From Escherichia coli (lineage in GTDB: Bacteria; Pseudomonadota; Gammaproteobacteria; Enterobacterales; Enterobacteriaceae), in assembly GCF_003334315.1 (NCBI RefSeq), contig NZ_QOWR01000034.1: a stretch of 49,379 bases of DNA; one strand, 5' to 3'. Shown piece by piece: positions 3,928 to 33,427 of this stretch. Numbering within the stretch: position 1 is the stretch's first letter; each line of letters starts with the position of its first letter. The notes beneath the pieces were generated by a model that saw only the letters and a list, made by a program, of their open reading frames with translations, was not told where the DNA came from and searched no databases. Made by a program: the position numbers and the translations under genes.

Positions 3928-6075
<2,148 letters not shown>

Positions 6076-29668: not shown

Positions 29669-32415
<2,747 letters not shown>

Positions 32416-32438
32416 GGCATGCTCCAGGCCGAAAAAGC

Positions 32439-33095
32439 CTAGCGTAATGGAATGATATCGCCTTGCCAACCCTGTGATGAACGCTGACCGACTAACAATA
32501 ATGAACCATGATCGGCGCGAACGATGAGACGACCATATTCATCCCATAGTGCACTGTTACCACGGGCATTTGCCATCAGCACAGCAATCGAGTACTGATG
32601 TGAAAAAAATTGTAAGCGACGGGCCGACGCCAGCAGGTCGGGTTCTCCCAGACATTGCCCTGTCGTAAACAGTGAACAGGTCGGGTCCATATCCATACCT
32701 TGCGGTTGTTCATCGACCACCGTGATGGTTCTGGAACGACGGCCCAGACATGCACCATGACTCTGATGGTAGATCCCAGGCGTTTTTCGCCACGGTGCGA
32801 ACACCGCAATTCCACGAATAAAGCGATCGTTATATTCAACGGGAAGGCCGGCAATGATGGTCATTCGCCAGGTCGTTGCGGCATAACAAAGCGGGTCTAA
32901 CAGTGAGAGATCGGGTGGGGCAGGAAGGGCACGTCGCGAATAATCACACCCCAGTAAAGAAAGCGATGGAAAAACTAACAGCTGACATTGTTGCCTGGCG
33001 GCGGCCCTCACAAACTCCAGATGATGAGCTACCTGTTCGGTGAGTGAGGTTTTACGAGGCTCATATTGCGCTGCTGCAACTTTCCAGAACGACAT
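32439..33095 (-). CDS. yobB: Carbon-nitrogen hydrolase (nitrilase superfamily) protein YobB, function unknown
   Basis: 218-aa ORF, 23 nt upstream of exoX on the same strand; nitrilase-like LLVFPSLSLLGCDY segment. Confidence 0.8.
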   Translation of the reverse strand: MSFWKVAAAQYEPRKTSLTEQVAHHLEFVRAAARQQCQLLVFPSLSLLGCDYSRRALPAPPDLSLLDPLCYAATTWRMTIIAGLPVEYNDRFIRGIAVFAPWRKTPGIYHQSHGACLGRRSRTITVVDEQPQGMDMDPTCSLFTTGQCLGEPDLLASARRLQFFSHQYSIAVLMANARGNSALWDEYGRLIVRADHGSLLLVGQRSSQGWQGDIIPLR

Positions 33096-33196
33096 AATGA
33101 CTTCCTTTTCAAAATGACTGCAAATTATGGGTGCGGTTTAGAAAATACTCATAATTTAGCAGGCGTTATGTAAGAAAGTGTAACCCTGTATAAGTT

Positions 33197-33427
33197 TTAT
33201 TTAAGTTTGGGCTCGTAAGGTAAACGTGACAGATTGACCGAAGCCAAACGGTGGGCAATAAGCCGCTCGCGAAACCAGCTGCGCAAATGTTCAGGCTGTT
33301 CACGTTCAACCGCTTCAGCGATCACCGGCATATTGTAGCGTTCTTTAAATGCCACCCCGGCCGCCGCCAAATCGACATTCACTTTATCCATTTCTGTTTG
33401 ATCCAGTTTAGCCAGATTCTTCAGCAT
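33197..33427 (-). CDS. holE: DNA polymerase III theta subunit
   Basis: Start trimmed to ATG 33427 ([27 protein letters not shown]...), 76 aa; GGAG-containing SD upstream. Confidence 0.9.

What the first reader, a model, noticed from the sequence alone, without database searches (positions are those of the whole stretch)
32439..33095. YobB: nitrilase-fold protein with Ser where the catalytic Glu is expected, in an operon with exonuclease X
The segment QLLVFPSLSLLGCDY looks like the conserved nitrilase-superfamily block (typically hydrophobic-VFPE-...-GY) that carries the first catalytic Glu of the Glu-Lys-Cys triad, but here it reads FPS. A WRK (possible catalytic Lys) and a GQCLGE (possible Cys) are present. 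If the motif assignment is right, YobB may be catalytically altered or a pseudoenzyme. It sits 23 nt upstream of exoX on the same strand, suggesting co-transcription with a DNA exonuclease. The motif assignment is from memory of the family and needs a real alignment.
Basis: partly seen in the sequence, partly recalled or inferred. Interest (0 to 1): 0.4.

Follow-up and report, generated by a model that had tools for sequence, protein, structure and literature searches.

The report
YobB: a dead nitrilase-fold enzyme relic
E. coli YobB keeps the fold of an amidase but has lost all four catalytic residues, while its sequence is still preserved by selection, so the "carbon-nitrogen hydrolase" label is probably wrong about what it does.

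Summary
The ORF is real: window 32439-33095, minus strand, 218 aa, 23 nt upstream of exoX. Ser44 does sit where the first catalytic Glu of the nitrilase superfamily belongs.

Alignments anchored on a solved amidase show that YobB lacks the catalytic Lys, the second Glu and the nucleophile Cys. These sites fall in two small deletions totalling 19-20 residues.

Intact 248-254-aa orthologues with the full Glu-Lys-Glu-Cys tetrad lie directly upstream of exoX in Erwinia, Rouxiella and Serratia. Enterobacteriaceae show a mosaic of decay:
- Buttiauxella keeps Glu and Lys, with Cys replaced by Ser.
- Enterobacter and Kluyvera keep only the Glu.
- Escherichia, Salmonella and Citrobacter have Glu replaced by Ser or Ala.
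- Klebsiella, Kosakonia and others have lost the gene, some leaving scars.

Retained copies are still under purifying selection (dN/dS 0.03-0.13). The gene is present in all 5426 complete E. coli genomes.

Verdict: YobB is a catalytically dead but maintained pseudoenzyme, co-transcribed with ExoX without depending on it. Its non-catalytic role is unknown. Interest is moderate.

The parts
32439..33095 (-). yobB coding sequence (218 aa plus stop): a degenerate nitrilase-superfamily domain
   Evidence: The ORF is. Pfam CN_hydrolase matches in two pieces. The AF2 model has pLDDT 85 and pTM 0.87. Foldseek top hits are nitrilase-superfamily amidases with probability 1.0.
32964..32966 (-). Codon TCG for Ser44, at the position of the first catalytic Glu (FPS instead of FPE)
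   Evidence: The alignments place Ser44 on the Glu. Codon survey: Glu is GAA/GAG, Ala is GCC, and Ser uses all four TCN codons.
32763..32771 (-). Y109-H110-Q111, where the catalytic Lys (Y-x-K) should be; no Lys is present. The next 4-13 residues of the canonical protein, which carry the second Glu, are deleted.
   Evidence: Profile-profile alignment (hhalign) and MAFFT alignments that include intermediate orthologues. Position 111 reads Q 77, H 10, K 2 of 92.
32679..32714 (-). Residues 128-139 (DEQPQGMDMDPT): a short, low-confidence loop. It replaces the nucleophile elbow (aICaD) and most of the helix that follows it in canonical relatives.
   Evidence: Gaps of 6-16 residues fall here. Block pLDDT values for residues 121-140 are 69 and 63, and no helix is predicted.
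32784..32786 (-). It is not conserved and not the catalytic equivalent.
   Evidence: Column composition; alignment.
32652..32654 (-). It is not conserved. It lies in the strand that follows the missing helix.
32913..32927 (-). L57-P-A-P-P61 motif, conserved in the YobB family but absent from catalytically intact relatives
   Evidence: P58 0.96, P60 0.92 and P61 0.99 in the YobB family, against A, T and L in canonical relatives.
32448..32555 (-). Residues 181-216, the nearly invariant C-terminal block (SALWDE.GQLIVRAD.G.LLLTG....QGWQGDIIP). Part is inherited and part is constrained only in the YobB family.
32416..32438 (-). yobB-exoX spacer of 23 nt carrying the exoX ribosome-binding site (GGAG)
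   Evidence: Read directly. The 3' end of yobB plus this spacer survives as a scar in genera that lost yobB.
31753..32415 (-). exoX (exonuclease X, DEDDh RNase T-type domain plus ExoX C-terminal domain), the downstream gene of the operon
   Evidence: Pfam labels for its orthologues.
33165..33192 (-). TATACA-16 nt-CATAAC, the sigma-70 promoter for yobB-exoX reported in the literature, located in the holE-yobB spacer
   Evidence: The hexamers are listed in PMC3946193. I located them in the sequence. The consensus scanner did not call this site.
33197..33427 (-). holE (theta subunit of DNA polymerase III), the conserved upstream neighbour
   Evidence: Translation; Pfam DNA_pol3_theta in related loci.

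Best explanation
YobB is a catalytically dead descendant (a pseudoenzyme) of a roughly 250-aa amidase of the nitrilase (carbon-nitrogen hydrolase) superfamily. That amidase sits immediately upstream of exoX across Enterobacterales.

Shown:
- The ancestral form carries the full Glu-Lys-Glu-Cys tetrad and survives in Erwinia, Rouxiella and Serratia.
- Within Enterobacteriaceae the catalytic residues were lost piecemeal and differently in different genera. None of 51 full-length copies keeps the tetrad.
- The 216-230-aa forms, including E. coli YobB, have two deletions. These remove the Lys/second-Glu loop and the Cys elbow with most of its helix.
- In Escherichia, Salmonella, Citrobacter and Intestinirhabdus the last catalytic residue changed as well. 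The codons are consistent with the path GAR (Glu) to GCN (Ala) to TCN (Ser).
- The remaining protein folds as a nitrilase-like sandwich lacking that helix.
- It is transcribed with exoX from a sigma-70 promoter in the holE-yobB spacer.
- It is kept by purifying selection.

Inferred:
- YobB no longer hydrolyses C-N bonds.
- It acts through binding, either of a protein or of a small ligand. The likely surfaces are those that became newly constrained in this family: the LPxPP loop beside position 44, helix 151-168 and the C-terminal sheet.
- The role is accessory, because many genera have deleted the gene while keeping exoX.
For: Fold and homology:
- Pfam CN_hydrolase matches at E = 2e-19.
- Foldseek gives probability 1.0 and TM 0.73-0.77 to amidases 6ypa, 5h8j, 1j31 and 3hkx.
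- hhalign against canonical relatives gives probability 100.

Anchoring of the catalytic residues:
- The Erwinia-type orthologue P0148 aligns its E44, K111 and C143 with E41, K111 and C145 of the Nesterenkonia amidase.
- Among 117 canonical relatives, all 117 have the Glu, Lys and Cys, and 116 have the second Glu.

Loss in YobB:
- hhalign and two MAFFT alignments agree that no Lys, second Glu or Cys is present.
- The gaps are 4+16 or 13+6 residues depending on the alignment.

Synteny:
- The arrangement holE-yobB-exoX|ptrB, or CN hydrolase-exoX|ptrB, is seen.
- The spacer to exoX is 12-39 nt.

Mosaic of states among 51 full-length copies in 80 species-level genomes:
- Position 44 is Ser in 23, Ala in 3, Glu in 24 and His in 1.
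- Lys is kept in 7 and Cys in 1.

Selection and retention:
- dN/dS is 0.03-0.13 in 21 of 22 species pairs, with dS saturated in the other. exoX gives 0.01-0.05.
- yobB is present in 5426 of 5426 complete E. coli genomes and covered at 80% or more in 5425.
- Several residues are invariant in YobB but not in active relatives.
Against: - No activity assay exists, and no residue-level 3D superposition was possible with these tools. A new active site therefore cannot be formally excluded.
- Pfam's local alignment starts its second piece at Cys116, near the model position of the catalytic Cys. This could be read as a retained nucleophile.
- Against that reading: position 116 is C 68, S 20, Y 3, T 1 of 92. 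With intermediate orthologues included, it aligns to the strand before the Cys strand. It also lies inside a predicted beta-strand rather than at an elbow.
- Repeated loss of the gene shows that the function is dispensable in many lineages. 27 of 80 species have no match, and there are remnants in E. albertii, Cedecea and Klebsiella.
- yobB evolves 2-5 times faster than its neighbours.
Confidence: 0.8

Rival explanations
1. One reading: YobB is a working or altered-chemistry CN hydrolase. It would use a Ser44 / Lys104 (WRK) / Cys148 (GQCLGE) triad, with Ser substituting for the general-base Glu.
For: All three sequence strings are present. Ser44 is at the Glu position.
Against: K104 and C148 are among the least conserved positions of the family. 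They do not align with the canonical Lys and Cys. Position 44 itself varies among E, S, A, H and D across orthologues.
Confidence: 0.02
2. YobB is still an enzyme, with a new active site built from family-specific conserved residues such as Y11, C37, H113, C116/S116, H166 and R193. It would catalyse a reaction other than Cys-mediated C-N hydrolysis.
For: Selection is strongly purifying. Several polar residues are conserved only in the YobB family. Position 116 alternates between Cys and Ser.
Against: No constellation is invariant. Position 116 also takes Tyr and Thr, and position 113 reads H 44, S 22, Q 6. The segments that line the ancestral pocket are deleted or have low model confidence. 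There is no precedent for such a site in the solved relatives found here.
Confidence: 0.08
3. yobB is a decaying gene with no protein function of its own. It persists only because its DNA carries signals needed to express exoX: the promoter, translational coupling and the ribosome-binding site.
For: The gene has been lost repeatedly and independently. The scars that remain are exactly the 3' end plus the spacer carrying the exoX GGAG. E. albertii and an Escherichia clade strain carry internal deletions. yobB evolves faster than its neighbours.
Against: dN/dS of 0.03-0.13 at dS of 0.2-2.8 means that amino-acid changes are removed along the whole ORF. The frame is covered at 80% or more in 5425 of 5426 E. 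coli genomes. There are invariant family-specific residues. Genera that deleted yobB express exoX directly behind holE, so the ORF is not needed in cis.
Confidence: 0.08
4. YobB is a non-catalytic partner or regulator of exonuclease X, or of the neighbouring theta subunit, and binds it directly.
For: The CN hydrolase-exoX pair with a 12-39-nt spacer is conserved across three families of Enterobacterales. Both genes appear in an overexpression screen for H2O2 resistance (PMC8228696).
Against: An AF2 model of a YobB-linker-ExoX fusion with a paired alignment gave pTM 0.51. Both domains folded well, so no confident mutual placement was found. exoX stays intact in 27 of 80 species without yobB. 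Mangrovibacter keeps the yobB homologue with no adjacent exoX. The pairing predates the loss of catalysis, so it need not reflect a physical complex.
Confidence: 0.12

Closest known systems
Intact CN hydrolase encoded upstream of exoX in Erwinia billingiae (P0267), Rouxiella badensis (P0364) and Serratia (P0328)
   Same: They are positional orthologues: same operon partner (exoX), same neighbourhood (copCD, holE, ptrB) and the same fold. They share the motifs AAAQ, H25, FPxLSLTG, aN, GxSAxW and W.G.
   Different: They are 248-254 aa long and carry the full Glu-Lys-Glu-Cys tetrad. YobB is 218 aa with none of the four. Identity to E. coli YobB is only about 28-36%.
Aliphatic amidase of Nesterenkonia sp. 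AN1 (PDB 3hkx, 5jqn) and PH0642 / Pyrococcus amidase (1j31, 6ypa)
   Same: These are the closest solved structures by Foldseek (E about 1e-11, TM 0.71-0.76). They have the same alpha-beta-beta-alpha sandwich. They served as the anchor for the catalytic positions.
   Different: They are active enzymes with E41/K111/C145 or equivalents, and they have a helix after the Cys elbow. Identity to YobB is 14-16%. In the YobB model that helix is replaced by a short loop.
Glutaminase domain of glutamine-dependent NAD+ synthetase (PDB 5kha; NCBIfam NF010588 / NF002730)
   Same: It is the best sequence-level hit for the N-terminal 95 residues. The fPELs block aligns to vfPSLs.
   Different: Scores are far below the family cut-offs (18.6 bits against a cut-off of 473). 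YobB has no synthetase domain, and the similarity does not extend past the first Glu block.
Pseudoenzymes in general (catalytically dead homologues retained under selection)
   Same: YobB has the homologous fold, has lost the catalytic residues and is under purifying selection.
   Different: No binding partner or regulatory role has been identified for YobB. It is also lost outright in many related genera. Full-text searches found no paper describing a nitrilase-superfamily pseudoenzyme.

Membership tests
Nitrilase (carbon-nitrogen hydrolase) superfamily | Homologous alpha-beta-beta-alpha sandwich fold and a match to the family profile | tested here: met
   Pfam PF00795 matches at E = 2.2e-19 and 1.6e-6. 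Foldseek gives probability 1.0 to many family structures. hhalign gives probability 100 against canonical relatives.
Nitrilase (carbon-nitrogen hydrolase) superfamily | First catalytic Glu (general base) in the hydrophobic-FPE block | tested here: not met
   Ser44 aligns to the Glu. Orthologues carry E, S, A, H or D.
Nitrilase (carbon-nitrogen hydrolase) superfamily | Catalytic Lys (Y-x-K-x-h-L strand) | tested here: not met
   The Lys column is occupied by H110/Q111 or by a gap. 117 of 117 canonical relatives have Lys.
Nitrilase (carbon-nitrogen hydrolase) superfamily | Second Glu, 6-8 residues after the Lys | tested here: not met
   It falls in a 4-13-residue deletion. 116 of 117 canonical relatives have it.
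Nitrilase (carbon-nitrogen hydrolase) superfamily | Nucleophile Cys at the elbow (h-h-I-C-x-D/E) | tested here: not met
   The segment is deleted (6-16-residue gap). The alternative candidates C116 and C148 are not conserved.
Nitrilase (carbon-nitrogen hydrolase) superfamily | Hydrolysis or condensation of non-peptide C-N bonds | not testable with these tools
   This needs an enzyme assay. Full-text searches turned up no paper reporting biochemistry on YobB.
Pseudoenzyme (dead homologue maintained by selection) | Loss of catalytic residues that are invariant in active relatives | tested here: met
   none of the four tetrad residues is present in E. coli YobB.
Pseudoenzyme (dead homologue maintained by selection) | Purifying selection on the protein after the loss of catalysis | tested here: met
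   dN/dS is 0.03-0.13 in the 21 species pairs that could be scored. yobB is present in all 5426 E. coli genomes.
Pseudoenzyme (dead homologue maintained by selection) | A demonstrated non-catalytic function (binding, scaffolding or regulation) | tested here: inconclusive
   The fusion model with ExoX gave pTM 0.51. The only other leads are high-throughput hints: an AceF crosslink, membership of the CpxR iModulon and an H2O2 screen.
yobB-exoX operon | Same strand, short spacer, shared promoter and conserved pairing | tested here: met
   The spacer is 23 nt and 12-39 nt in 58 loci. The promoter listed for yobB-exoX in PMC3946193 was found in the sequence. Transcription itself was not measured here.

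The most novel reading that the evidence does not exclude
YobB is a neofunctionalised nitrilase-fold pseudoenzyme. Its remodelled former active-site face (the LPxPP loop, the shortened hairpin and Ser/Ala44) would now bind a protein or metabolite. The role would be in stress handling and tied to the exoX operon, for example modulating ExoX or sensing an amide or thiol metabolite during envelope or oxidative stress. It would be a described case of a regulatory pseudoenzyme in the nitrilase superfamily, with a complete set of evolutionary intermediates available in living genera.
Probability: 0.2. Interest if true: 0.6.

Novelty: new variant of a known kind. Interest (0 to 1): 0.4.

Why it matters
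YobB is one of the uncharacterised 'y' genes of E. coli K-12. Databases name it a carbon-nitrogen hydrolase, which steers functional guesses and metabolic reconstructions toward an amidase activity that it almost certainly lacks.

The locus also offers an unusually complete natural series:
- the intact enzyme in Erwinia and Serratia;
- partly decayed forms in Buttiauxella and Atlantibacter;
- shortened forms in Enterobacter;
- forms without the last catalytic residue in Escherichia;
- deleted forms in Klebsiella.

This series could be used to study how an enzyme becomes a pseudoenzyme, and which surfaces come under new constraint as it does. It also shows that the CN hydrolase-exoX pairing is old. 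The ancestral amidase may therefore be worth testing for a link to DNA or nucleotide metabolism.

Tried and rejected
1. A direct sequence search of YobB against PDB chains gave only a marginal N-terminal hit (E = 0.086). The family profile improved this to 2.5e-6 but still covered only residues 1-96. I therefore anchored the catalytic positions through the intact orthologue P0148.

2. Pfam's two-piece alignment suggested that Cys116 might be the retained nucleophile. I rejected this for three reasons. Position 116 is not conserved. It aligns to the preceding strand once intermediate orthologues are included. It lies inside a predicted strand.

3. An AF2 model of a YobB-(GGGGS)6-ExoX fusion with a 26-row paired alignment gave pTM 0.51. 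This is no support for a complex, but the tool gives no PAE, so the test is crude.

4. A CpxR-box-like GTAAG-N5-GTAAC lies at 33170-33184 in the yobB promoter region. Matches at two mismatches are common in the window (61 found, about 39 expected), so this single site is not evidence.

5. The consensus promoter and terminator scan found nothing useful around yobB.

6. Literature searches for YobB biochemistry or for nitrilase-superfamily pseudoenzymes found only high-throughput mentions.

7. The Pseudomonas homologue is paired with a GNAT acetyltransferase rather than exoX. The exoX link is therefore specific to Enterobacterales.

8. The first attempt at a homologue search with P0148 failed for lack of a free server slot. 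It succeeded on the second try.

Full report
**Observation**

The window holds an ATG-to-TAG ORF of 218 aa on the minus strand at 32439-33095, with GGAAG upstream.

exoX ([12 protein letters not shown]...) starts at 32415 on the same strand. This leaves a 23-nt spacer containing GGAG. holE (the theta subunit of DNA polymerase III) ends 101 nt upstream of yobB, also on the minus strand.

**Family and fold**

Pfam CN_hydrolase matches in two pieces. Residues 5-113 align to model positions 1-112, and residues 116-208 to positions 149-249. About 36 model positions are therefore skipped.

An AF2 model built on 33 orthologues is confident (pLDDT 85, pTM 0.87). It has three long helices (18-34, 63-75, 151-168) and twelve strands.

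Foldseek against the PDB returns nitrilase-superfamily amidases, carbamoylases and formamidases at E about 1e-11 to 1e-10, with TM up to 0.77. By descent and by fold, YobB belongs to the superfamily.

**The catalytic residues**

- A single-sequence search and a family-profile search of PDB sequences both align vfPSLs with fPELs / fPEv of NAD+ synthetase glutaminase domains and a nitrilase.
Across 92 full-length orthologue clusters, position 104 reads T/D/A/Q/K and position 148 reads S/C/A.
- To find the true equivalents I used more distant relatives from the all-against-all search. The 252-aa protein P0148 aligns over 214 residues with the Nesterenkonia amidase. Its E44, K111 and C143 fall on that enzyme's E41, K111 and C145, after correcting for a 3-residue tag offset. 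The mutant names in PDB entries 4izv and 4izs identify E41 and C145 as the mutated residues. K111 as the catalytic Lys is from memory of the Nesterenkonia amidase literature.
- In 117 relatives of P0148, the Glu, Lys and Cys are invariant and the second Glu is present in 116.
- Profile-profile alignment of the YobB family against these relatives gives probability 100. It shows a 4-residue gap over the Lys and a 16-residue gap over aICaD plus the following helix.
- MAFFT alignments that include intermediate-length orthologues place the gaps slightly differently: 13 residues after the Lys position and 6 over ICADIS. The conclusion is the same. YobB has no Lys, no second Glu and no Cys, and is 19-20 residues shorter in this region.
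- The segment that replaces the Cys elbow and helix (residues 128-139) is a low-confidence loop in the model.

**Evolutionary series at one locus**

Intact forms:
- Looking up the contigs that encode distant homologues showed they are positional orthologues.
- P0148 and its 82%-identical relative in Erwinia billingiae lie in copC-copD-yebY | holE - CN hydrolase - exoX | ptrB, with a 12-nt spacer to exoX.
- Rouxiella badensis and Serratia have an intact CN hydrolase 20-30 nt upstream of exoX. In both, holE lies 1.5-2 kb away.

Survey of Enterobacteriaceae:
- A holE-anchored scan of one genome per species returned 80 Enterobacteriaceae loci. All 80 have exoX downstream.
- 51 have a full-length yobB, 2 have truncated copies, and 27 have no match.
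- Among the 51, position 44 is Ser in 23 (Escherichia, Salmonella, most Citrobacter) and Ala in 3 (C. youngae, C. werkmanii, Intestinirhabdus).
- Position 44 is Glu in 24 (Enterobacter, Kluyvera, Trabulsiella, Pseudocitrobacter, Pluralibacter, Buttiauxella, Entomohabitans) and His in 1 (Enterobacter sp. Ag1).
- Lys survives in 7, namely Buttiauxella, Entomohabitans and Enterobacter sp. Ag1.
- Cys survives only in Enterobacter sp. Ag1. It is Ser in Buttiauxella and Asn in Entomohabitans.
- None of the 51 has the whole tetrad.
- Atlantibacter (241 aa) and Mangrovibacter (234 aa, with Glu changed to Asp) are further variants.
- The codons fit a two-step path from GAR (Glu) to GCN (Ala) to TCN (Ser). 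Ser is encoded by all four TCN codons, so it is old and maintained.

This mosaic is what would be expected if catalysis was abandoned early in Enterobacteriaceae and each catalytic position then drifted independently.

**Loss**

- In Kosakonia and Phytobacter, holE is followed by exoX after about 15 nt.
- Klebsiella oxytoca, Enterobacter sp. BIGb0383 and Dryocola retain a recognisable scar: the last few codons of yobB plus the exoX ribosome-binding site.
- Cedecea colo has a frameshifted remnant.
- E. albertii keeps only codons 1-22 and 144-218.
- Escherichia sp. MOD1-EC7003 has an internal deletion.

The gene is therefore dispensable in many lineages. ExoX does not require it.

**Selection**

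Nei-Gojobori dN/dS was calculated for 22 species pairs spanning every form. One pair had saturated dS for yobB. The other 21 gave 0.03-0.13 for yobB, against 0.01-0.05 for exoX and 0-0.06 for holE.

yobB is found in 5426 of 5426 complete E. coli genomes. It is covered at 80% or more in 5425, and the remaining genome has an IS30 insertion.

Compared with active relatives, the YobB family has acquired near-invariant residues: Y11, C37, P58/P60/P61, P68, Q162, F164, H166, LIVRAD (190-195), LLLTG and IIP.

The protein is therefore maintained. It is not a pseudogene in E. coli.

**Function**

Shown: YobB has the fold, lacks all four catalytic residues, shares an operon with exoX, is under purifying selection, and is repeatedly lost.

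Literature:
- A constitutive RpoD promoter, TATACA-16-CATAAC, is listed for 'yobB-exoX' in PMC3946193. I located it at 33165-33192 on the minus strand in the sequence.
- yobB is a member of the CpxR iModulon but was not found to be a direct CpxR target (PMC7657598).
- YobB was photo-crosslinked to AceF (bioRxiv 10.1101/2022.09.20.508727).
- yobB was up-regulated in the later culture stages (S2 versus S1) of a transcriptome study of persister formation (bioRxiv 10.1101/310961).
- yobB and exoX both appear in an overexpression screen for H2O2 resistance (PMC8228696).

Inferred: YobB acts non-catalytically, through binding.

A crude test for a YobB-ExoX complex used an AF2 model of a linker fusion with a paired alignment. 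It gave pTM 0.51 with both halves well folded, so it offers no support. Independent loss of either partner also argues against an obligate complex.

**Verdict**

The fuller picture is an enzyme-to-pseudoenzyme transition with living intermediates.

I found no paper describing this.

Interest is moderate. The finding corrects an annotation in a model organism and offers a tractable evolutionary series. However, pseudoenzymes are a known phenomenon and the actual role of YobB remains open.

Noticed in passing
L013-L019, L021, L022, L026, L029, L036, L038, L039, L041, L043, L079, L088 (about 4229-4265): In Kosakonia, Phytobacter and several Enterobacter-like species, holE is followed by exoX after only 14-36 nt. 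There the theta subunit of DNA polymerase III, which binds the DnaQ proofreading exonuclease, forms a tight gene pair with the DnaQ-family exonuclease ExoX. Whether theta has any functional link to ExoX was not examined.
   Followed up: partly
L012 4229-4653 (E. albertii NBRC 107761); L010 4316-4770 (Escherichia sp. MOD1-EC7003): These are natural yobB deletion alleles inside the genus Escherichia. E. albertii keeps only codons 1-22 and 144-218. The MOD1 strain lacks roughly codons 138-187. exoX is intact in both.
   Followed up: partly
L064, L066, L070, L083, L087 (YobB forms of 228-230 aa); P0088, P0108 (Scandinavium): A subgroup of short YobB forms carries a conserved 12-residue C-terminal extension with two Cys residues (RESLxAIDESxCxA). 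It is absent from E. coli YobB.
   Followed up: no
L093 and L094, 4001-5214 (Pseudomonas fuscovaginae and a metagenome): The intact Pseudomonas homologue (46% identity to the Erwinia form) overlaps by 4 nt a downstream GNAT acetyltransferase gene instead of exoX. This may be a clue to the substrate class of the ancestral amidase.
   Followed up: no
window 33170-33184 (+): GTAAG-AAAGT-GTAAC resembles the CpxR box GTAAA-N5-GTAAA. It lies between the -35 and -10 hexamers of the reported yobB-exoX promoter, and yobB is in the CpxR iModulon. Matches at two mismatches are frequent in the window (61 found, about 39 expected), so this is only a lead.
   Followed up: partly
P0058 (218 aa, NCBI 'exodeoxyribonuclease X'): One E. 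coli protein cluster combines a CN_hydrolase N-terminal part (91% identical to YobB over 55% of its length) with the ExoX C-terminal domain (PF20600). It is probably a deletion that fuses yobB to exoX in one strain.
   Followed up: no
L007 5001-7780 (Mangrovibacter sp. MFB070); L006: Mangrovibacter keeps a decayed yobB homologue (Glu changed to Asp, Cys to Asn) next to holE, but exoX is missing between it and ptrB. This is the reverse of the Klebsiella situation.
   Followed up: partly
L001, L002, L007 (upstream of yebY): A prophage integrase/excisionase module, with exonuclease VIII in L001 and L002, is inserted next to yebY in the Atlantibacter and Mangrovibacter loci. This suggests an integration hotspot beside the copCD-yebY genes.
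   Followed up: no
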